This document shows positions 1,885 to 38,930 of a stretch of 64,000 nucleotides of DNA, in pieces; positions within the stretch are counted from its first letter, which is position 1; each line of letters opens with the position of its first letter. This DNA is from Escherichia phage OLB145. A program made the translations under genes and the position numbers. The stretch lies in the sequence record MH992123.1; one strand, written 5' to 3'. A model generated the notes under the pieces. That model did not search any database. It saw only the letters and a list, made by a program, of their open reading frames with translations, and had not been told where the DNA came from.

Positions 1885-2091
1885 ATGTTTAAGTTCTTAG
1901 ACCTTATCTGGGCAGTCATTTTGCTGGTTGCTACAGGCTTTGTATATGGCTTCTTGCTCCCATCAATGATGTCTGCTTTAGACAGCATCATTGTTGTTAT
2001 GGGCTTGATAGTCTGTATTGTGTGGCCTCTTATCGTAGGCCGTATCGTTTATCTTACAGTTAAGAAAAGGATGAGAAGAAAGCATGTATAA
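1885..2091 (+). CDS. small two-TM membrane protein, translationally coupled to downstream SPFH gene
   Basis: Track ORF starts at TTG 1849 inside the terminator; first ATG 1885 has GGAG 4 nt upstream; product 'MFKFLDLIWAVILLVATGFVYGFLLPSMMSALDSIIVVMGLIVCIVWPLIVGRIVYL' is two hydrophobic helices; stop overlaps next start (ATGTATAA). Confidence 0.55.
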   Translation: MFKFLDLIWAVILLVATGFVYGFLLPSMMSALDSIIVVMGLIVCIVWPLIVGRIVYLTVKKRMRRKHV

Positions 2092-2920
2092 GTATATTGC
2101 AGTAGCAATTGCAGGGCTAATCATTGCTCTAAGTTTAACGAGCTGCTATGACCGAGTTGAACCAGGTAATGTAGGTATTATCGTTAACCGTCTCGGTGAA
2201 GATAAAGGTGTGGAAAATGAGGTTAAAGGTGTAGGCCGTTACTGGCTCACTTGGAATGAAGAACTTTATACATTCCCGACCTTTAAGCAGATGAAGACCT
2301 ATGATGGTCTGTTCTACTTCCAACTGTCTGATGGTACTCAGATAGGTCACCAGATGGCTATCAGCTATAAAGTGAACCCTACTAAGGTAACTAATATCTT
2401 CCAGACGTATCGTAAGGGAGTTAATGAAATTACCGAGCAGGATTTACGACAACGTATTGCTGATGTACTTAACAGACAGGGTAACTTGATTAACACTGAT
2501 ACCTTTATTGATGGTGGTAAATCTAAGCTACTGGATAGTGTCACTGACACAATCCGTAAAGAGATGGAACCAGTGGGGATTGATATTATTGCTATCTCCT
2601 GGATTGGTGCTCCTGAATACCCTGACAACGTTAAACGTGCCATTAATGCCAAAGTAGAAGCTACTCAGAAAACTCTGCAACGTGAGCAAGAGATTCAGCA
2701 ACGTGTAGCTGAAGCTAATATGGAACGTGAACAAGCTAAGGGTGTAGCAGATGCTATTCTGATTAAGGCTAAAGCAGAGGCTGACGCTATTCGTTTACGT
2801 GGTGAAGCACTCACCGAGAACCCAAATGTAATGCAACTGGAAGCCATTAATAAGTGGAATGGTACATTACCTACCACAATGATTCCTGGGGCTACTACAC
2901 CTTTCGTTAATGTGAAATAA
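2084..2920 (+). CDS. SPFH/band-7 (stomatin/prohibitin-like) domain lipoprotein
   Basis: N-terminal signal with lipobox 'LSLTSC'; SPFH-like core; C-terminal coiled coil 'KAKAEADAIRLRGEALTENPNVMQLEAINKWNGTLP', resembling the prohibitin/HflC C-terminus. Confidence 0.6.
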   Translation: MYKYIAVAIAGLIIALSLTSCYDRVEPGNVGIIVNRLGEDKGVENEVKGVGRYWLTWNEELYTFPTFKQMKTYDGLFYFQLSDGTQIGHQMAISYKVNPTKVTNIFQTYRKGVNEITEQDLRQRIADVLNRQGNLINTDTFIDGGKSKLLDSVTDTIRKEMEPVGIDIIAISWIGAPEYPDNVKRAINAKVEATQKTLQREQEIQQRVAEANMEREQAKGVADAILIKAKAEADAIRLRGEALTENPNVMQLEAINKWNGTLPTTMIPGATTPFVNVK

Positions 2921-2926
2921 CTAAGC

Positions 2927-2957
2927 AAACCCACCATTACGGTGGGTTTATTTTTTT
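2927..2957 (+). terminator. intrinsic terminator
   Basis: 9-bp stem AAACCCACC/GGTGGGTTT (2927-2935/2941-2949), then TTTTTTT. Confidence 0.7.
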
Positions 2958-3209: not shown

Positions 3210-3566
3210 ATGGCTCAAGAAAAGAATCGTCGTCAGACACTTATCGAACGTATTCAGGCCAGAATCAAATTACAGGACTTAGGCTATACCGTTAATGGTC
3301 AGCCTAGTCTCTGTCACATCTGGACTGGTTCACATTCAGGTAATGGACGTGGTGGGCAATATGGCAGGATTTCCGTGAATGGAGTTACCTCTGCAACTCA
3401 CATTATTGCCTATACCCATTATCATGGTTATATCCCCAATAAGATGCAAGTAGACCATCTCTGTAATAACCGTCTGTGCTGTAACCCTGAACATCTTGAA
3501 TTGGTTACTCACCAAGAGAACCAGAGAAGAAGGGCTAAGCGTTCTAAATCTAAAGGAAATAAATAA
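3210..3566 (+). CDS. HNH homing endonuclease
   Basis: 'HIIAYTHYHGYIPNKMQVDHLCNNRLCCNPEHLELVTHQENQ' is a complete HNH_3-type motif with a basic C-terminal tail. Confidence 0.75.
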   Translation: MAQEKNRRQTLIERIQARIKLQDLGYTVNGQPSLCHIWTGSHSGNGRGGQYGRISVNGVTSATHIIAYTHYHGYIPNKMQVDHLCNNRLCCNPEHLELVTHQENQRRRAKRSKSKGNK

Positions 3567-3766: not shown

Positions 3767-4825
3767 ATGGCTAGTATTGATTCTATTGCCGTATGTAATC
3801 CACGGCAGGTACGTAAATTTGTTGAACACTGTATCCGTTCAGGATTGGTTCCATTTATCACTTCATCCCCTGGCATGGGTAAATCTGCAATTGTTCATCA
3901 GATTGCAGAAGATTTTGGCCTGAAACTGATTGACCATCGTCTGTCTACTTCAGCACCAGAAGACCTGTCAGGTCTGCCTCGTTTTAAAGAAAATGGTCGT
4001 GCTGAATTTGCTCCATTTGATGAGCTATTCCCACTGGAAGGGGATGCTGTACCTGAAGGATTTAATGGCTGGCTTCTCTTTCTCGATGAGTTTAACTCTG
4101 CTCGTAAAGAGATTCAGGCTGCTGCTTATAAACTGGTACTCGACCGTATGACCGGTCAGAAGAAGCTACATCCTTATGTAGCTATCGTATGTGCTGGTAA
4201 CAAAGCAACTGACCGTGCCATTACTAATAACCTGTCTACAGCTATGCAATCACGTCTTATTCATCTGGAAATGGAGACTGATTTTGATGTCTTCATGGAA
4301 GATGTAGCCATCCCTAATAAGTGGGATGAGCGTGTAATTGCATTCCTGAATGCTAACCCAAATAAACTGAATGATTTTGAACCAGACCATCAAGAGAAGA
4401 CTTTCTGTTGTTCTCGTACATGGGAGTTCGTTAACAAGATTGTTTCCATTCTCCCACCAGGACCAATTGATAGTGAAATGACTCTACTGTTAGCAGGCAC
4501 TATCACTTCTGGTGTAGCAACATCATTCGTCCAGTTTACTCAGGTCTATAGCAACATGGTGTCTTTGAATGAGATTTTGGATAATCCTAAGAAAGCTCGT
4601 ATGCCTGAAGACAATAACCTGTTGTGGGCTGTAGTCACTTCACTGATTAACAATACTGACGAAGATAATCATTCGAAAATCTTTGATTACGTTGAACGTA
4701 TGCCATTTACGTTCAAGGTTTTGTACTACCGTTCCGTAGGTAGTCTGGTTCCAGCTTTAGTTAAATTACCGAACTGGCGTGTTGCTGCAATCACATTATC
4801 TAAATACGTTCATGGTTCCAATTAA
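3767..4825 (+). CDS. AAA+ ATPase, MoxR-like (N4 gp24-like)
   Basis: Walker A 'SSPGMGKSAIV', Walker B 'LLFLDEFNSA', sensor-like 'VAIVCAGN'; GGAGAG SD. Confidence 0.7.
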   Translation: MASIDSIAVCNPRQVRKFVEHCIRSGLVPFITSSPGMGKSAIVHQIAEDFGLKLIDHRLSTSAPEDLSGLPRFKENGRAEFAPFDELFPLEGDAVPEGFNGWLLFLDEFNSARKEIQAAAYKLVLDRMTGQKKLHPYVAIVCAGNKATDRAITNNLSTAMQSRLIHLEMETDFDVFMEDVAIPNKWDERVIAFLNANPNKLNDFEPDHQEKTFCCSRTWEFVNKIVSILPPGPIDSEMTLLLAGTITSGVATSFVQFTQVYSNMVSLNEILDNPKKARMPEDNNLLWAVVTSLINNTDEDNHSKIFDYVERMPFTFKVLYYRSVGSLVPALVKLPNWRVAAITLSKYVHGSN

Positions 4826-4991
4826 TAAGAAGGGAGTTACAGACCTCCTGTATGTTGCTGGCTTTAACGGTGAAGAAATTACCGTATATGCCCCAAGTCT
4901 GGCTGCTGCTAAACAAAAGGCAGTTGAATACTTTCGTCCAAAGAAACGTGTAGCCCATACTATTTGGGTTCATCTCGCAGAGGAAAACTGA
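4812..4991 (+). CDS. hypothetical small protein
   Basis: Track ORF 4779-4991 overlaps the AAA+ gene; only in-frame ATG is 4812 (no SD, overlaps upstream stop). Confidence 0.3.
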   Translation: MVPINKKGVTDLLYVAGFNGEEITVYAPSLAAAKQKAVEYFRPKKRVAHTIWVHLAEEN

Positions 4992-4992
4992 T

Positions 4993-6135
4993 ATGTCCAT
5001 GACAGATGCTCAATTAACCCGTGAATATGACAGATGTCAGGCTAAAGCCTTTATGGGCAAAACTGCTGCATTCTTTGGTTCACTGTTATGTTCCCTGAAG
5101 TTCCGTTGGGTAAAAGATGGCTGTGATACAGCACAAACCGATGGTGAGCATCTCGAATGGAATCCTGATTGGTTTGAAAGTCTATTACCTGAATCTCGTG
5201 TAACAGTACTTATGCATGAACTATGGCATGTTGGCTTACTGCATTCTGTTCGTATGGGTTCTCGTGACCCAGAAGTATGGAATTATGCCTGTGATATTTA
5301 TATCAACAATCAGCTTATTCAGGATGGCTACAGCTTTATAGGAATCGAAAATTGCTGGAAAGACCCTAAGTATGCTGGTTGGGCTGAAGAACAAATCTAT
5401 GATGACCTCATGAGCAAACAGATACGTCCTCCTAAAGCACATGGTGCTTTTGGGACTGGCTCAGGTGGTGACATGAAATCTTCCACTTCGAAGGCTAGTC
5501 AGGTGAATATTGTCAATAATGTAGTAAGAGCCATGCACCAACAGAAACTATCTGGTGGCTCTTTGCCTGGGGTATTACCTGGAAAAATGGAAGAAGTTAT
5601 TACTCAATTCCTGAAACCAGTAGTACCGTGGCAGGTTTTACTTGAACGCTTCTTCAATGACCTGCAAGAAACTTACTACTCATGGCAACGGCCTAATCGT
5701 AGATACCCTGATATGTACCTACCATCTCCTATGGATGATGACGGTAGACTGGAACATCTGGCTTATTTCCTCGATACATCTGGCTCCATTAAACCTAAAG
5801 ATGCTTTACGCTTTAGCTCTGAAGTGGCCTATGTAAAAGAGAAATATCAGCCTCAGAAGATGACTCTAGTTCAGTTCACTACAGAGATTGTAGACGAACA
5901 AGTCATTGAAGATGGTGATAAGTTTACTGATGTCACTATCAAAGGACGAGGTGGTACTAGTCTGGTTCCTGTACGTGAGTGGATTATTAAGCATAAGCCT
6001 ACTGCTGCCATTATCTTTACTGACTTAGAAGTCAGACCGATGGAGCCATTGCCATTTGACATTCCTGTCATATGGGTAGTTATTCGTAACCCTGGTGCAC
6101 AAGTTCCATTTGGGAAAATTATTAACATTACATGA
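4993..6135 (+). CDS. von Willebrand factor A domain protein with N-terminal HExxH metallopeptidase-like motif (N4 gp25-like)
   Basis: 'VLMHELWHVGLLH' (HExxH); MIDAS-like 'LAYFLDTSGSI'; SD GAGGAAA; adjacent to the AAA+ ATPase. Confidence 0.65.
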   Translation: MSMTDAQLTREYDRCQAKAFMGKTAAFFGSLLCSLKFRWVKDGCDTAQTDGEHLEWNPDWFESLLPESRVTVLMHELWHVGLLHSVRMGSRDPEVWNYACDIYINNQLIQDGYSFIGIENCWKDPKYAGWAEEQIYDDLMSKQIRPPKAHGAFGTGSGGDMKSSTSKASQVNIVNNVVRAMHQQKLSGGSLPGVLPGKMEEVITQFLKPVVPWQVLLERFFNDLQETYYSWQRPNRRYPDMYLPSPMDDDGRLEHLAYFLDTSGSIKPKDALRFSSEVAYVKEKYQPQKMTLVQFTTEIVDEQVIEDGDKFTDVTIKGRGGTSLVPVREWIIKHKPTAAIIFTDLEVRPMEPLPFDIPVIWVVIRNPGAQVPFGKIINIT

Positions 6136-6937: not shown

Positions 6938-6961
6938 GCCCACTTTATGTGGGCTTTTTTA
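6938..6961 (+). terminator. intrinsic terminator (second of a tandem pair; a weaker hairpin lies at 6879-6895)
   Basis: Stem GCCCAC/GTGGGC 6938-6943/6949-6954, then TTTTTT. Confidence 0.65.
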
Positions 6962-37300: not shown

Positions 37301-38873
37301 CATCACGAATAGTAACTTCTGCTTCTGGTGCTTGAGCCATAGCTTCTTGTGCTGCCTGTGCAACATAGTCATCAGCAACAGGAGATGCTTCTTCATTCTG
37401 CTTCATAACCCGCTCACCACGAGCTACCAAAGTGTTCTTAATAGGGGAAACAACCTTACCTGCTACACTACCAGCAGCTTTAACACCAGCCATTGTGGTA
37501 CGCAATACAGGAGCAGTTGCAGCACCTGCTAAACGAGCAGCACCAGCCGGAGCCTGTACAACACCAGCAGAGCCAAAGCCATAAAGAGCACCTAAACCAG
37601 CTTGTGTACCGACACCTTTAAGCAGGTCTTGGTTCTTATCAATGTTTTGTTGCTGTGCAATATTCTGAGCCAGTTGTCCTGTAGCACCCTGAACACCTTC
37701 TTCCACTGTTTCACGGGCAAGGTTCATACCTACAGCACCTAAAGAACCAGCACGGAAAGGGGCCATCTCAAAACGAAATACCAGAGGACCAGTTGCAGCA
37801 GCAATAGGTAATTGAATAGCAGCAGCAGTAAGACCCGTTTCAGATGCAGTCTGACGACGAGCCTGTTCTGGAGACATACCATCTTTAATATGTTGCTGAT
37901 AAACAGGAGACTTCTCTAAGTCTTTAAGACTCATCTTCATAATTTCATCAGCAGTTTGTTGGTATGCACCACCAGCTTCTATTGCACCAACACCAACCAT
38001 ACCCGGTGCAGCTCTACCTACAGTAGAGGCAATACGAGCCAGTGACTGAGTACCAGTACCTGCATCAATAGCACCAGCCAATGCAGCACTACGAAGAGTA
38101 TTTGCTGGAACAACTGCTTTACCCAGTAAAGATGCACCCCTTAATACAGGACCAGCACCTAATAGAGAACCTACCCCTTCTGCTAACCCATCGGAAATAA
38201 TGGAGTCAGTTTGAGCAGCATTCTCAATTGAACCTACAAAATCACGTCCAAATTTAGATAAGGAAGCTACTATGTCATTAGTGCCTTCTTTCTTATCTGT
38301 TTGATACTGACGTTCACTCTCTACTTCATTCATTAAGTTACGAGCAGCAAAGAGCTTACGTTTATCTTGTAATGCCTGGCTTTGGGTAGCATGAACAGCA
38401 TCATTAAACTTACTCAATTGTTGAGCAACAACAGCACCTGCATCATCGTTGAGTAAGCCTGCCCCAAGAGCACCAATGCCCCCAAGGGTATTAACAAAAC
38501 CAAGACCAACACCAGTAGCAATATCACCCAGTTCTTCCCCAGGAGTTCTTGTAGTAACTGAATCATTGAATACCTGGTTCCCTGCATCAGCACGAGCATT
38601 GATAAGTTGTAAGCCTTGCTCAACCCCATACTTATTCATGATTTGCATTGGAGTCAGATTCATGAAATCTGATTGCACTGTCCCTGGTTCAAATGCATTA
38701 GCCCCAACATTACCAGTACGGGCAGCTTGCATTTGATAAGCAGCATCAGGAGAAACAAGAGGAGTAGTGACACCTTGTTCAGCTTTCTTCTGGGCGGTTG
38801 CAGTAGAGACGTCAACTTGCTTTGCATTGGTTACGCTGTCTGCGAACCCAGCCAGTCTATCAAATACTGACAT
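28371..38873 (-). CDS. virion-encapsidated RNA polymerase (vRNAP), giant single-subunit RNAP of N4-like phages
   Basis: Single uninterrupted ORF; track start 38891 is TTG, first ATG 38873 has AGGAAA 6 nt upstream and gives exactly 3500 aa, the length I recall for N4 gp50; position at the head of the late cluster. Confidence 0.8.
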   Translation of the reverse strand: MSVFDRLAGFADSVTNAKQVDVSTATAQKKAEQGVTTPLVSPDAAYQMQAARTGNVGANAFEPGTVQSDFMNLTPMQIMNKYGVEQGLQLINARADAGNQVFNDSVTTRTPGEELGDIATGVGLGFVNTLGGIGALGAGLLNDDAGAVVAQQLSKFNDAVHATQSQALQDKRKLFAARNLMNEVESERQYQTDKKEGTNDIVASLSKFGRDFVGSIENAAQTDSIISDGLAEGVGSLLGAGPVLRGASLLGKAVVPANTLRSAALAGAIDAGTGTQSLARIASTVGRAAPGMVGVGAIEAGGAYQQTADEIMKMSLKDLEKSPVYQQHIKDGMSPEQARRQTASETGLTAAAIQLPIAAATGPLVFRFEMAPFRAGSLGAVGMNLARETVEEGVQGATGQLAQNIAQQQNIDKNQDLLKGVGTQAGLGALYGFGSAGVVQAPAGAARLAGAATAPVLRTTMAGVKAAGSVAGKVVSPIKNTLVARGERVMKQNEEASPVADDYVAQAAQEAMAQAPEAEVTIRDAVEATDATPEQKVAAHQYVSDLMNATRFNPENYQEAPEHIRNAVAGSTDQVQVIQKLADLVNTLDESNPQALMEAASYMYDAVSEFEQFINRDPAALDSIPKDSPAIELLNRYTNLTANIQNTPKVIGALNVINRMINESAQNGSLDVTEESSPQEMQNVALAAEVAPEKLNPESVNVVLKHAADGRIKLNNRQIAALQNAAAILKGAREYDAEAARLGLRPQDIVSKQIKTDESRTQEGQYSALQHANRIRSAYNSGNFELASAYLNDFMQFAQHMQNKVGALNEHLVTGNADKNKSVHYQALTADREWVRSRTGLGVNPYDTKSVKFAQQVALEAKTVADIANALASAYPELKVSHIKVTPLDSRLNAPAAEVVKAFRQGNRDVASSQQKADSVNQVKETPVTKQEPVTSTVQTKTPVSEPVKTEPTTKESRPQAIKEPVSQSEKQDATLTNEDTIEQPTESVKETETSVKERTVTEELREGIDAVYPSLVGTADSKAEGIKNYFKLSFTLPEEQKSRTVGSEAPLKDVAQALSSRARYELFTEKEVANPAFNGEVIKRYKELMEHGEGIADILRSRLAKFLNTKDVGKRFAQGTEANRWVGGKLLNIVEQDGDTFKYNEQLLQTAVLAGLQWRLTATSNTAIKDAKDVAAITGIDQALLPEGLVEQFDTGMTLTEAVSSLAQKIESYWGLSRNPNAPLGYTKGIPTAMAAEILAAFVESTDVVENIVDMSEIDPDNKKTIGLYTITELDSFDPINSFPTAIEEAVLVNPTEKMFFGNDIPPVANTQLRNPAVRNTPEQKAALKAEQTTEFYVHTPMVQFYETLGKDRILELMGAGTLNKELLNDNHAKSLEGKNRSVEDSYNQLFSVIEQVRAQSEDISTVPIHYAYNMTRVGRMQMLGKYNPQSAKLVREAILPTKATLDLSNQNNEDFSAFQLGLAQALDIKVHTMTREVMSDELTKLLEGNLKPAIDMMVEFNTTGSLPENAVDVLNTALGDRKSFVALMALMEYSRYLVAEDKSAFVTPLYVEADGVTNGPINAMMLMTGGLFTPDWIRNIAKGGLFIGSPNKTMNEHRSTADNNDLYQASTNALMESLGKLRSNYASNMPIQSQIDSLLSLMDLFLPDINLGENGALELKRGIAKNPLTITIYGSGARGIAGKLVSSVTDAIYERMSDVLKARAKDPNISAAMAMFGKQAASEAHAEELLARFLKDMETLTSTVPVKRKGVLELQSTGAGAKGKINPKTYTIKGEQLKALQENMLHFFVEPLRNGITQTVGESLVYSTEQLQKATQIQSVVLEDMFKQRVQEKLTEKAKDPTWKKGDFLTQKELNDIQASLNNLAPMIETGSQTFYIAGSENAEVANQVLATNLDDRMRVPMSIYAPAQAGVAGIPFMTIGTGDGMMMQTLSTMKGAPKNTLKIFDGMNIGLNDITDASRKANEAVYTSWQGNPIKNVYESYAKFMKNVDFSKLSPEALEAIGKSALEYDQRENATVDDIANAASLIERNLRNIALGVDIRHKVLDKVNLSIDQMAAVGAPYQNNGKIDLSNMTPEQQADELNKLFREELEARKQKVAKAKAEVKEETVSEKEPVNPDFGMVGREHKASGVRILSATAIRNLAKISNLPSTQAATLAEIQKSLAAKDYKIIYGTPTQVAEYARQKNVTELTSQEMEEAQAGNIYGWTNFDDKTIYLVSPSMETLIHELVHASTFEEVYSFYQGNEVSPTSKQAIENLEGLMEQFRSLDISKDSPEMREAYADAIATIEGHLSNGFVDPAISKAAALNEFMAWGLANRALTDKQKRTSSLVQMVKDVYQAIKKLIWGRKQAPALGEDMFSNLLFNSAILMRSQPTTQAVAKDGTLFHSKAYGNNERLSQLNQTFDKLVTDYLRTDPVTEVERRGNVANALMSATRLVRDVQSRGFNMTAQEQSVFQMVTAALATEAAIDPHAMARAQELYTHVMKHLTVEHFMTDPDSTNPADRYYAQQKYDTISGANLVEVDAKGRTSLLPTFLGLAMVNEELRSIIKEMPVPKADKKLGNDVDTLLTNAGTQVMESLNRRMAGDQKATNVQDSIDALSETIMTAALKRESFYDAVATPTGNFIDRANQYVTDSIERLSETVIEKADKVIANPSNVAAKGVAHLAKLTAAIASEKQGEIVAQGVMTAMNQGKVWQPFHDLVNDIVGRTKTNANVYDLIKLVKSQISQDRQQFREHLPTVIAGKFSRKLTDTEWSAMHTGLGKTDLAVLRETMSMAEIRDLLSSPKKVKDEISTLEKEIQNQAGRNWNLVQKKSKQLAQYMITGEVGNNLLRNAHAISRLLGERITNGPVADVAAIDKLITLYSLELMNKSDRDLLSELAQSEVEGMEFSIAYMVGQRTEEMRKAKGDNRTLLNHFKGYIPVENQQGVNLIIADDKEFAKLNSQSFTRIGTYQGSTGFRTGSKGYYFSPVAARAPYSQGILQNVRNTAGGVDIGTGFTLGTMVAGRITDKPTVERITKALAKGERGREPLMPIYNSKGQVVAYEQSIDPNMLKHLNQDNHFAKMVGVWRGRQVEEAKAQRFNDILIEQLHAMYEKDIKDSSANKSQYVNLLGKIDDPVLADAINLMNIETRHKAEELFGKDELWVRRDMLNDALGYRAASIGDVWTGNSRWSPSTLDTVKKMFLGAFGNKAYHVVMNAENTIQNLVKDAKTVIVVKSVVVPAVNFLANIYQMIGRGVPVKDIAVNIPRKTSEINQYIKSRLRQIDAEAELRAAEGNPNLVRKLKTEIQSITDSHRRMSIWPLIEAGEFSSIADAGISRDDLLVAEGKIHEYMEKLANKLPEKVRNAGRYALIAKDTALFQGIQKTVEYSDFIAKAIIYDDLVKRKKKSSSEALGQVTEEFVNYDRLPGRFRGYMESMGLMWFYNFKIRSIKVAMSMIRNNPVHSLIATVVPAPAMFGNVGLPIQDNMLTMLAEGRLDYSLGFGQGLRAPTLNPWFNLTH

Positions 38874-38930
38874 AGTAGGTTTCCTATACAAACTTATATC
38901 TATTAGAAATCACACTATACCTAGTGTAAG

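What the first reader, a model, noticed from the sequence alone, without database searches (positions are those of the whole stretch)
3767..6135. MoxR-like AAA+ ATPase paired with a VWA protein carrying an HExxH metallopeptidase-like motif
Adjacent, co-oriented genes: a MoxR-type AAA+ ATPase (Walker A/B present) and a 380-aa protein combining an N-terminal HELWH motif with a C-terminal VWA domain (MIDAS-like DTSGS). MoxR-VWA pairs usually act as chaperone or metal-insertion systems. Their target in a phage is unknown; it could be maturation of a virion or replication component, or manipulation of a host complex.
Basis: partly seen in the sequence, partly recalled or inferred. Interest (0 to 1): 0.55.

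Follow-up and report, generated by a model that had tools for sequence, protein, structure and literature searches.

The report
N4 gp24-gp25 ATPase and VWA-peptidase pair
These are the known, never-characterised core genes gp24 and gp25 of coliphage N4: a MoxR-like motor ATPase and a partner protein that joins a zinc-peptidase-like domain to a VWA docking domain. The same two-gene unit also occurs in other phage groups and in conjugative plasmids.

Summary
The window is an N4-group Enquatrovirus, 99.6% identical to vB_EcoP_3HA13 and 98% to N4. The two ORFs are N4 gp24 (352 aa) and gp25 (380 aa).

- **gp25** is DUF2201_N (E 6e-86) plus DUF2201 (VWA-like, E 2e-46). HExxH, H84, D101 and all five MIDAS residues are invariant in 40 relatives.

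The pair is already in the literature as a Schitoviridae core pair. The same architecture has been described in jumbo phages. No functional study was found.

New here:
- A gp24-like gene plus a gp25-like gene form a self-contained core that recurs in conjugative plasmids and ICEs, usually with a third DUF3150-like gene that phages lack.
- An unannotated, conserved 59-aa gene lies between gp24 and gp25.
- Some bacterial relatives have lost the catalytic Glu but keep the metal and MIDAS residues.

Most likely it is an ATP-driven machine that captures, remodels and cleaves a target protein. The target is unknown and probably not virion-specific. The feature is already known; interest is moderate.

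The parts
3767..4825 (+). gp24: AAA+ ATPase of the MoxR/midasin/dynein (AAA_5) clade, 352 aa
3863..3886 (+). gp24 Walker A (SSPGMGKS, aa 33-40)
   Evidence: G38, K39 and S40 are invariant in 35 relatives. Coordinates.
4073..4093 (+). gp24 Walker B (LLFLDEF, aa 103-109)
   Evidence: D107 and E108 are invariant. N145 (sensor-1 position), R163 and R217 are also invariant.
4812..4991 (+). Small conserved gene between gp24 and gp25 (59 aa). It overlaps the gp24 stop by 14 nt and ends 1 nt before the gp25 ATG.
   Evidence: phrog_19202 at E 2e-33. Annotated in AL25 and PMBT57 but not in the N4 RefSeq record. tblastn finds 46-56% identity in Achromobacter, P. putida and Erwinia schitoviruses; where both coordinates are listed (Axy24, Kuerle) the hit lies just upstream of the gp25 homologue. 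Sequence context.
4993..6135 (+). gp25: zincin-like metallopeptidase domain plus VWA domain, 380 aa
   Evidence: Pfam DUF2201_N at aa 10-245 (E 6e-86) and DUF2201 at aa 256-380 (E 2e-46). AlphaFold model with mean pLDDT 80.
5215..5244 (+). HELWHVGLLH: HExxH plus a conserved fifth-residue His (H75, E76, H79, H84)
   Evidence: Invariant in 40 relatives. Lies on predicted helix 66-81. The profile aligns this stretch to the active-site helix of minigluzincin MJ1213.
5281..5310 (+). NYACDIYINN: conserved helix carrying N97, D101 and N105 (candidate third metal ligand or catalytic support)
   Evidence: N97, A99, D101 and N105 are invariant. D101 is kept in all bacterial homologues aligned at this site and in all but one representative.
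5758..6132 (+). VWA domain with a complete MIDAS (D261, S263, S265, T322, D344)
2927..2949 (+). Terminator-like hairpin closing the upstream unit (after gp20)
   Evidence: Nine-pair stem followed by a T-run. Annotated as a terminator in phage AL25.
6938..6954 (+). Terminator-like hairpin after gp27. It closes the predicted gp21-gp27 unit that contains gp24, the small ORF, gp25 and the dCTP deaminase gene.
   Evidence: and the AL25 annotation.

Best explanation
gp24 and gp25 form a two-protein, ATP-driven 'capture, remodel and cut' machine that works in the cytoplasm during the middle phase of infection. By analogy with solved MoxR/VWA couples, gp24 assembles into a hexameric AAA+ ring. One gp25 docks on the ring through its VWA domain. 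The MIDAS metal site of gp25 grips an acidic residue on a target protein. ATP hydrolysis pulls on gp25 and on the target. The N-terminal zinc-peptidase domain of gp25 then cleaves the exposed target, or possibly gp25's own linker. The same two-gene core is carried by unrelated phage lineages and by conjugative plasmids and ICEs. The target is therefore more likely a host or DNA-transaction protein relevant to establishing or replicating incoming mobile DNA than a virion component. Shown here: the domain identities, the conservation of catalytic residues, the gene pairing and the distribution. Inferred: complex formation, proteolysis and the nature of the target.
For: gp24's fold is closest to midasin, dynein, CbbQ and NorQ, and its ATPase motifs are invariant. 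gp25's VWA fold has a MIDAS that is invariant in the 40 aligned phage relatives and kept in virtually all 231 aligned homologues. HExxH, H84 and D101 are invariant in all 40 N4-like relatives. The domain profile matches minigluzincin and M48 peptidases. Neither protein has a membrane-like segment. Pairing is conserved: a gp24-like gene lies directly upstream in 69 of 80 bacterial loci, it is adjacent in jumbo phage 121Q and it lies within 4 kb in an rV5-like phage. gp24 and gp25 are the only window genes shared with 77 bacterial loci. The module occurs on 75 plasmids, 30 of them typed conjugative. It sits directly upstream of virB11-virB4 on a Burkholderia conjugative plasmid, beside TraM/TraN and ParB in Chitinophaga, and beside a PRTRC cassette, SRAP and ImuA/ImuB/DnaE2 in Acidicapsa. 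In N4, gp24 and gp25 are middle transcripts (PMC4193335). Here they lie in a terminator-bounded unit with dCTP deaminase. The MoxR/VWA docking mechanism comes from NorQ/NorD (PMC9976466, PMC13036017).
Against: No experiment on gp24, gp25 or any DUF2201 protein was found. No complex prediction could be run. No structural match to a solved zincin was obtained, because VWA hits fill both fold-search lists. About 10% of the bacterial homologues have lost the catalytic Glu (HTxxH, HLxxH, HIxxH) while keeping the His, Asp and MIDAS residues, so peptide cleavage is not universal in the family. In conjugative elements the module sits next to transfer-apparatus genes, which also fits an assembly role. 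The Schitoviridae papers I read name no scaffolding protein or maturation protease for N4 (the DEV paper says none has been identified for the scaffold), so a virion role remains open.
Confidence: 0.42

Rival explanations
1. Virion (or ejection-apparatus) morphogenesis system. gp24 and gp25 chaperone and proteolytically process structural proteins during particle assembly. This was proposed for the same architecture in jumbo phages, by analogy with the MoxR/VWA pair needed for tail development in Acidianus two-tailed virus.
For: Proposed by Iyer et al. 2021 (PMC7824862). In phage 121Q the pair is flanked by genes annotated as structural. In roseophage RPP1, four virion-protein genes lie near the gp24/gp25 homologues (PMC4193335). 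No scaffolding protein has been identified for N4 (PMC11445570). No maturation protease is mentioned for Schitoviridae in the two structural papers checked. In conjugative elements the module abuts T4SS genes, so a generalised role in assembling the DNA-transfer machine is conceivable.
Against: The module is present on plasmids and ICEs that make no virion. In N4 it is a middle-gene unit with nucleotide-metabolism genes, on the strand opposite to the vRNAP gene and the rest of the minus-strand block beyond about 28 kb. That this block is the late structural region is from my own knowledge of N4. The gp24/gp25 homologues are not among the RPP1/RLP1 virion proteins listed in the excerpt of Table 4 that I saw. 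rV5-like and T4-related jumbo phages that carry the module already encode canonical prohead proteases (from my own knowledge, not tested here). Both proteins are predicted to be soluble and cytoplasmic, whereas most T4SS parts are in the envelope.
Confidence: 0.25
2. Metal-delivery or cofactor-insertion chaperone of the NorQ/NorD, CoxD/CoxE or CobS/CobT type. The His3/Asp site of the N-domain holds a metal ion that is handed to a client enzyme rather than hydrolysing peptides.
For: This is the generic role of several MoxR/VWA couples. The catalytic Glu is replaceable while H75, H79, H84 and D101 are retained in some bacterial homologues. gp24 weakly matches the phage 'CobS / porphyrin biosynthesis' PHROG at E 8e-7.
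Against: The Glu is invariant in all 40 N4-like relatives and in 119 of 150 distant representatives. The domain aligns to peptidase active-site regions, including the strand before the HExxH helix. gp25 has no CobT, BchD or NorD-specific domain. No conserved client metalloenzyme accompanies the module across phages and plasmids.
Confidence: 0.12
3. Conflict (defence or counter-defence) module related in logic to the vWA-MoxR ternary systems. The peptidase is an effector held inactive until a trigger appears. Phages use the two-gene core against host immunity or against competing elements.
For: Kaur et al. 2020 and the 2026 BREX paper describe MoxR plus vWA-fused peptidase plus a third sensor component as counter-invader systems. 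The bacterial relatives are three-gene units on mobile elements. One plasmid copy lies among Sir2, WYL and DUF262 genes.
Against: There are no PADLOC hits for the phage or the bacterial proteins. The third bacterial gene is DUF3150-like, not a recognised VMAP/iSTAND (homology to VMAP was not tested). It is absent from the phages examined. Strict conservation as one of about 14 core genes of a whole phage family is unusual for accessory conflict genes.
Confidence: 0.13
4. gp25 is an HNH endonuclease, as labelled in RefSeq and in Pharokka-type annotations.
For: The only support is the PHROG label of phrog_1314, which has propagated into RefSeq records.
Against: gp25 has no HNH Pfam match. The whole protein is covered by DUF2201_N plus DUF2201. 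The real HNH gene is gp22, at 3210-3566.
Confidence: 0.01

Closest known systems
Escherichia phage N4 gp24 (YP_950502) and gp25 (YP_950503), core genes of Schitoviridae
   Same: These are the same genes. The DNA is 98% identical over 3 kb. They are listed as core genes ('24 Unknown; 25 vWFA domain', 'AAA+ ATPase; gp25') in PMC4193335 and PMC7650795.
   Different: Nothing of substance differs. The reference N4 record omits the 59-aa gene between them and mislabels gp25 as an HNH endonuclease.
MoxR-vWA pair with an N-terminal metallopeptidase on the vWA protein, described in group 2.2 jumbo phages (Iyer et al. 2021)
   Same: Same three-domain architecture. Jumbo phages such as 121Q carry true homologues of both proteins: gp25 at 25% identity over 96% of its length and gp24 at E 1e-28.
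   Different: The jumbo-phage proteins are longer (441 and about 475 aa) and only 25-29% identical. Their proposed virion-assembly role is untested, and it does not explain the copies on plasmids and ICEs.
NorQ/NorD, CbbQ/CbbO and RavA/ViaA (bacterial MoxR AAA+ / VWA chaperone couples)
   Different: Those partners carry no peptidase domain and serve a named client (cNOR, Rubisco, respiratory complexes). gp25 adds a zincin domain and has no known client. Sequence similarity is below Pfam thresholds for gp24.
vWA-MoxR ternary conflict systems (Kaur et al. 2020; BREX paper 2026)
   Same: A MoxR ATPase plus a vWA protein fused to a peptidase effector. The bacterial relatives of gp24 and gp25 also have a third conserved gene.
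   Different: The phage has no third large component. The bacterial third gene is DUF3150-like rather than VMAP/iSTAND. Metallopeptidase effectors are rare in the described systems. There are no PADLOC hits.
Minigluzincins (selecase MJ1213, projannalysin) and M48 peptidases (HtpX, BepA)
   Same: The profile of the gp25 N-domain aligns its strand-turn-helix and HExxH region to their active-site region (E 0.003-0.3).
   Different: The similarity is weak and covers only about 40 residues. gp25 has an HExxHxxxxH...D pattern and a long helical linker not seen in those enzymes. No structural superposition was obtained.

Membership tests
Schitoviridae core pair gp24/gp25 | Orthology and synteny with N4 gp24 and gp25 | tested here: met
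   98-99.6% DNA identity to N4-group genomes with the same gene order. The gp24-gp25-dCTP deaminase order is kept in distant N4-like contigs.
MoxR-class AAA+ ATPase (AAA_5/AAA_3, helix-2-insert clade) | Walker A, Walker B, sensor 1 and arginine residues intact | tested here: met
   G38, K39, S40, D107, E108, N145, R163 and R217 are invariant in 35 relatives.
MoxR-class AAA+ ATPase (AAA_5/AAA_3, helix-2-insert clade) | Pfam AAA_5 or AAA_3 match above the gathering score | tested here: not met
   The window protein scores 19.8 bits on AAA_5 against a cutoff of 22, and 19.7 on AAA against 21.2. A bacterial orthologue passes AAA_5 (24.1 against 22) but not AAA_3 (25.5 against 27).
MoxR-class AAA+ ATPase (AAA_5/AAA_3, helix-2-insert clade) | Fold closest to midasin, dynein and MoxR members | tested here: met
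MoxR-class AAA+ ATPase (AAA_5/AAA_3, helix-2-insert clade) | Helix-2 insert and pre-sensor-1 beta-hairpin | tested here: inconclusive
   The model shows short strands at 72-79, between beta2 and beta3, and at 132-134, before beta4. However, pLDDT is only 59-64 for residues 60-90.
MoxR-class AAA+ ATPase (AAA_5/AAA_3, helix-2-insert clade) | Encoded next to a VWA-domain partner | tested here: met
MoxR-class AAA+ ATPase (AAA_5/AAA_3, helix-2-insert clade) | Hexamer formation and ATP hydrolysis | not testable with these tools
   Needs biochemistry or a multimer prediction.
VWA / MIDAS domain | VWA alpha/beta fold | tested here: met
VWA / MIDAS domain | Complete MIDAS motif DxSxS...T...D | tested here: met
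   D261, S263, S265, T322 and D344 are invariant in 40 relatives and kept in virtually all 231 aligned homologues (one T322N; three rows unaligned at T322/D344).
Zincin metallopeptidase (Pfam DUF2201_N) | HExxH on a helix preceded by a beta-sheet | tested here: met
   H75, E76 and H79 lie on helix 66-81, after strands 36-56. They are invariant. Pfam scores 288.7 bits.
Zincin metallopeptidase (Pfam DUF2201_N) | Identified third metal ligand | tested here: inconclusive
   H84 and D101 are both invariant candidates.
Zincin metallopeptidase (Pfam DUF2201_N) | Detectable relationship to solved zincins | tested here: inconclusive
   Profile hits: MJ1213 at E 0.003, M48 at 0.011, HtpX at 0.018. No fold-search hit is listed, because VWA hits dominate.
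Zincin metallopeptidase (Pfam DUF2201_N) | Proteolytic activity | not testable with these tools
   No experimental report was found.
vWA-MoxR ternary conflict system | Third VMAP/iSTAND-type component encoded with the pair | tested here: not met
   Only a 59-aa ORF lies between the genes. The bacterial third gene (DUF3150-like) has no homologue in the window or in the eight phage and N4-like loci searched (L001-L008). No PADLOC hits.
Chelatase pairs (CobS/CobT, BchI/BchD) | CobT- or BchD-specific domains in the VWA partner | tested here: not met
   gp25 has no such Pfam match. gp24 has only a weak CobS-type PHROG match.
HNH endonuclease (database label of gp25) | HNH domain | tested here: not met
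   No HNH Pfam hit in gp25. The HNH_3 hit belongs to gp22.

The most novel reading that the evidence does not exclude
gp24 and gp25 would be the phage form of a pan-mobile-element 'establishment protease'. It would be an ATP-driven, MIDAS-targeted metallopeptidase that phages, ICEs and conjugative plasmids all use to cleave one conserved host protein soon after their DNA enters a cell. The target could be a defence, nucleoid or replication factor. In N4 it could even correspond to an unmapped middle function such as host DNA-synthesis shut-off. That last link comes from my memory of the old N4 genetics and is untested.
Probability: 0.18. Interest if true: 0.75.

Novelty: already known. Interest (0 to 1): 0.38.

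Why it matters
gp24 and gp25 are two of only about 14 genes shared by every N4-like phage, and nobody knows what they do. The family is very large: 14,133 cluster representatives at 50% identity. It spans podoviruses, myoviruses, jumbo phages and conjugative elements. A conserved ATP-driven protease with an unknown substrate, common to such different mobile elements, would point to a shared and undescribed step in how incoming DNA takes hold in a cell, or in how transfer machines are built. The practical yield here is modest:
- a corrected annotation (not an HNH endonuclease);
- a missed small gene;
- a clear set of point mutants to test.

Tried and rejected
- **Defence and naming libraries.** PADLOC and NCBIfam scans of the phage proteins and PADLOC on three bacterial trios gave no meaningful hits.
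- **Solved structures by sequence.** Single-sequence searches with gp24 and gp25 found nothing.
- **Functional screens.** The CRISPRi-ART paper tested only rIIA/rIIB in N4. The phage Tn-seq preprint covers phiKZ only.
- **Literature.** Searches for DUF2201, DUF3150, COG3864 and the Pfam accessions found nothing relevant.
- **Third bacterial gene in phages.** A search for the DUF3150-like gene in the window and in eight phage and N4-like loci (L001-L008) found nothing. A profile search of that gene against solved structures and the large protein database gave no function and showed no domain fusions.
- **rV5-like 'anti-sigma factor'.** The gene next to the rV5-like gp25 homologue is not the ATPase partner. 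The real partner lies 3.7 kb away.
- **Rejected readings.** The chelatase (CobS/CobT) reading and the HNH label were considered and rejected.
Full report
**Identity of the region**

The 3-kb stretch around the finding is 99.6% identical to Escherichia phage vB_EcoP_3HA13 and 98.0% identical to phage N4 (Enquatrovirus, Schitoviridae). In the N4 record the two ORFs are gp24 and gp25. gp24 is labelled 'ATPase; similar to S. coel. protein 1'.

The neighbours are:
- gp20, an SPFH/Band-7 lipoprotein;
- gp22, an HNH endonuclease;
- gp23;
- gp26, a dCTP deaminase;
- a ThyX-like gene;
- rIIA and rIIB.

- gp24 has Walker A SSPGMGKS (aa 33-40) and Walker B LLFLDEF (aa 103-109).
- gp25 has HELWH (aa 75-79) and DTSGS (aa 261-265).
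- gp25 matches Pfam DUF2201_N ('putative metallopeptidase domain', E 6e-86, aa 10-245) and DUF2201 ('VWA-like domain', E 2e-46, aa 256-380).
- gp24 matches AAA_5 and AAA only below their gathering scores (19.8 against 22 bits, and 19.7 against 21.2). It matches phrog_1297 'ATPase' at E 1e-136.

The genes are not quite adjacent. A 59-aa ORF (4812-4991) overlaps the gp24 stop by 14 nt and ends 1 nt before the gp25 start. It matches phrog_19202. It is annotated in phages AL25 and PMBT57 but not in N4. It is conserved at 46-56% protein identity in Achromobacter, Pseudomonas putida and Erwinia schitoviruses. Where both sets of coordinates are available (Axy24, Kuerle) the hit lies just upstream of the gp25 homologue.

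**Anatomy of gp24**

In an alignment of 35 relatives at 52-79% identity, these residues are invariant:
- G38, K39 and S40 (Walker A);
- D107 and E108 (Walker B);
- N145, at the sensor-1 position;
- R163 and R217.

**Anatomy of gp25**

In 40 relatives at 51-86% identity, the following are invariant:
- H75, E76, H79 and H84, giving the pattern HExxHxxxxH;
- N97, D101 and N105 on the next helix;
- all five MIDAS residues: D261, S263, S265, T322 and D344;
- most of a WxRPNRR...YLP motif just before the VWA domain.

The model (mean pLDDT 80) shows a three-stranded sheet (36-56) and a helix at 66-81 carrying HExxH. A second helix at 93-110 and a poorly predicted helical linker (about 150-250, pLDDT 44-70) follow, and then a compact VWA domain.

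A profile of the N-domain alone (23 phage and bacterial sequences) reaches the minigluzincin MJ1213 (E 0.003), an M48 peptidase (0.011), HtpX (0.018), projannalysin (0.24) and BepA (0.3). The alignment covers the strand, turn and HExxH helix. The evidence is sequence-profile and secondary-structure level, not a structural superposition. Neither protein has a membrane-like segment.

**What is already published**

- gp24 and gp25 are listed among the roughly 14 core genes of N4-like phages, as '24 Unknown; 25 vWFA domain' (PMC4193335) and as 'AAA+ ATPase; gp25' (PMC7650795).
- They were called 'putative ATPase, AAA superfamily' and 'vWFA super-family' in 2009 (PMC2784036).
- PMC4193335 also states that they are middle transcripts in N4.
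- Iyer et al. [quoted passage not shown] They proposed a role in virion assembly with peptidolytic processing, by analogy with the Acidianus two-tailed virus (PMC7824862).

I found no experimental work on gp24, gp25 or any DUF2201 protein. CRISPRi-ART addressed only rII in N4. The feature is therefore already known, and its function is open.

**Distribution**

- gp25 has 1130 relatives in the 90%-clustered database. The best 120 are mostly on contigs of about 70-76 kb, the size of N4-like genomes.
- An exhaustive search of 50%-identity representatives finds 14,133 proteins at E up to 0.001, and 1300 at E up to 1e-30.
- tblastn finds gp25 in 688 phage records. These are all the N4-like groups, plus 350-kb jumbo phages (121Q, fHe-Yen9-03, BF), rV5-like myoviruses, Alcyoneusvirus and others.
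- tblastn finds gp24 in 840 phage records.

The ATPase is adjacent to the gp25 homologue in 121Q and in phiKp_21. In the rV5-like phage EmilHeitz it lies 3.7 kb away and is divergently oriented. The gene next to the gp25 homologue there, labelled 'anti-sigma factor', is unrelated to gp24.

**Bacterial and plasmid relatives**

A scan of one genome per species found at least 573 loci.
- In the 80 loci fetched, a gp24-like gene is directly upstream in 69 (phmmer E down to 1e-49).
- When every window ORF is compared with the 77 non-N4-like loci, only gp24 and gp25 are shared. The exception is L009, which is itself N4-like. The two genes thus form a self-contained core.
- In 60 of 80 loci a third conserved gene of about 300 aa accompanies them, usually between the two. 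It is weakly DUF3150-like: it reaches the Pfam cutoff for one member, and UniRef names one relative DUF3150. It has no homologue in the window or in the other phage and N4-like loci searched.

The surroundings are mobile elements:
- VirB11, TrbC and VirB4 in Paraburkholderia.
- On a Burkholderia pseudomallei conjugative plasmid (MOBH, MPF_T), the trio lies directly upstream of virB11-virB2-virB3-virB4 and near an integrase.
- TraM and TraN upstream and ParB downstream in Chitinophaga.
- A PRTRC cassette (Prok-E2_D, ThiF, PRTRC_E), a RES toxin, SRAP, ImuA-like/ImuB/DnaE2 and Sipho_Gp157 in Acidicapsa.
- RadC, Rad52, a recombination directionality factor, AbiEii, DnaN and a DNA ligase in other loci.

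In PLSDB, 75 plasmids carry a homologue. Thirty are typed conjugative and 11 mobilizable.

**A caution about catalysis**

I aligned 231 homologues. The MIDAS residues are kept in virtually all of them (one T322N; three rows are unaligned at T322/D344). The full HExxH...H...D pattern is kept in 67 of 80 bacterial loci and in 119 of 150 distant representatives. Eight Desulfobacter-lineage loci and a few representatives replace the catalytic Glu (HTxxH, HLxxH, HIxxH, HQxxH) while keeping H75, H79, H84 and D101. Docking through the MIDAS is therefore the universal feature. Peptide hydrolysis is probably ancestral and is retained in all N4-like phages, but it is dispensable in some lineages.

**Expression context in the window**

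Strong terminator-like hairpins lie at 2927-2949 and 6938-6954 on the plus strand. They bracket gp21, gp22, gp23, gp24, the 59-aa ORF, gp25, gp26 (dCTP deaminase) and gp27. Phage AL25 annotates terminators at the same two places. The gp24-gp25-dCTP deaminase order recurs in distant N4-like contigs.

**Mechanism**

The best-supported reading uses the solved NorQ/NorD system as a template. There, a VWA 'finger' enters the pore of the MoxR hexamer, the VWA protein's C-terminus contacts the ring, the MIDAS needs target carboxylates, and ATP hydrolysis remodels a linker in the VWA protein (PMC9976466 and PMC13036017).

Applied here, gp24 forms the ring and gp25 docks on it through its VWA domain. 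The MIDAS of gp25 captures an acidic residue of a target. ATP-driven pulling then exposes the target, or relieves an auto-inhibited peptidase, for cleavage by the zincin domain.
- Shown: the domains, the residue conservation, the pairing and the distribution.
- Inferred: complex formation, cleavage and the target.

The same core serves podoviruses, myoviruses, jumbo phages and conjugative elements. In N4 it is a middle-gene unit with nucleotide-metabolism genes. I therefore favour a target that is not virion-specific, such as a host or DNA-transaction protein (confidence about 0.4).

The virion or transfer-apparatus assembly reading remains a serious rival (about 0.25). It is favoured by several observations. 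The pair lies near structural genes in 121Q and RPP1 and next to T4SS genes in plasmids. No scaffolding protein has been identified for N4, and the structural papers I checked mention no maturation protease. A metal-delivery role (about 0.12) and a conflict-system role (about 0.13) are less likely. The HNH label is wrong.

**Comparison and verdict**

The pair is N4 gp24/gp25. It works like a MoxR/VWA chaperone couple with an added peptidase. It resembles, but is not a member of, the vWA-MoxR ternary conflict systems of Kaur et al. 2020, because it has no third VMAP/iSTAND component. It belongs to the same family as the jumbo-phage pair noted in 2021.

Novelty: already known. Interest is moderate (0.38). 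A specialist would not be surprised by the genes. The unknown function of a universally conserved pair is a real open question. The distribution across mobile elements, the missed 59-aa gene and the Glu-loss variants sharpen how it can be tested.

Noticed in passing
window 4812-4991 (+): A 59-aa gene is wedged between gp24 and gp25. It overlaps the gp24 stop by 14 nt and ends 1 nt before the gp25 ATG, with no obvious SD of its own. It is missing from the N4 reference annotation but conserved (46-56% identity) in several other schitovirus genera. It may be a third component of the module.
   Followed up: partly
L010-L085 (bacterial loci), e.g. L017:4991-5932, L086:8013-8942: A third conserved gene of about 300 aa, weakly DUF3150-like, accompanies the ATPase and VWA-peptidase genes in 60 of 80 bacterial or plasmid loci. 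It is absent from the phages. It has no known function, no solved relative and no PADLOC hit.
   Followed up: partly
L015, L030, L036, L037, L038, L045, L054, L082 (Desulfobacter-lineage homologues): The catalytic Glu of HExxH is replaced (HTxxH, HLxxH, HIxxH) while the three His, D101 and all five MIDAS residues are kept. These are probably peptidase-dead but still metal-binding and still docking variants.
   Followed up: partly
L007 (Mesorhizobium yinganensis contig2, 727 kb, 434974-448110) and L009 (Xenophilus sp. Marseille-Q4582, 914-kb contig, 70911-83996): N4-like gene blocks sit inside very large bacterial contigs. L007 has gp24-gp25-dCTP deaminase-ThyX. L009 has gp25 plus helicase, DNA polymerase and vRNAP homologues. 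These may be integrated N4-like elements or assembly chimeras. N4-like phages are usually regarded as strictly lytic.
   Followed up: no
window 4993-6135; RefSeq NC_008720 gp25 and many other records: gp25 homologues are widely labelled 'HNH endonuclease' in RefSeq and Pharokka-style annotations, apparently from the name of phrog_1314. No HNH domain is present. Other records call it 'virion RNA polymerase', 'Zn-dependent hydrolase (T4-gp25-like)' or 'putative anti-sigma factor'.
   Followed up: yes
L088 (Acidicapsa dinghuensis, 170567-191502): The bacterial trio lies between a PRTRC cassette (Prok-E2_D, ThiF, PRTRC_E) with a RES-domain gene and an SRAP gene followed by an ImuA-like/ImuB/DnaE2 mutasome operon and Sipho_Gp157. 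This is a DNA-damage and mobile-element neighbourhood.
   Followed up: no
L003 (Escherichia phage EmilHeitz, rV5-like): The gene directly upstream of the gp25 homologue is annotated 'anti-sigma factor' and is unrelated to gp24. The true gp24 homologue (bas49_0063) lies 3.7 kb away on the other strand, so the pair is split in Vequintavirinae.
   Followed up: yes
window 2084-2920 (+): gp20 is an SPFH/Band-7 protein (Pfam E 2e-23). It is annotated variously as 'lipoprotein' (N4 RefSeq) and 'serine protease' (AL25). It lies in the unit just upstream of the gp21-gp27 unit.
   Followed up: no
window 3210-3566 (+): gp22 is an HNH_3 homing-type endonuclease (E 9e-20) in the same predicted transcription unit, 200 nt upstream of gp24. 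A distant N4-like contig (L089) also has an HNH_3 gene a few genes upstream of the pair.
   Followed up: no
window about 28000: Cumulative GC skew peaks near 28 kb, and the large vRNAP ORF (28374-38909) lies on the minus strand beyond that point. From my own knowledge of N4, this is the switch from the early and middle genes to the late structural block.
   Followed up: no
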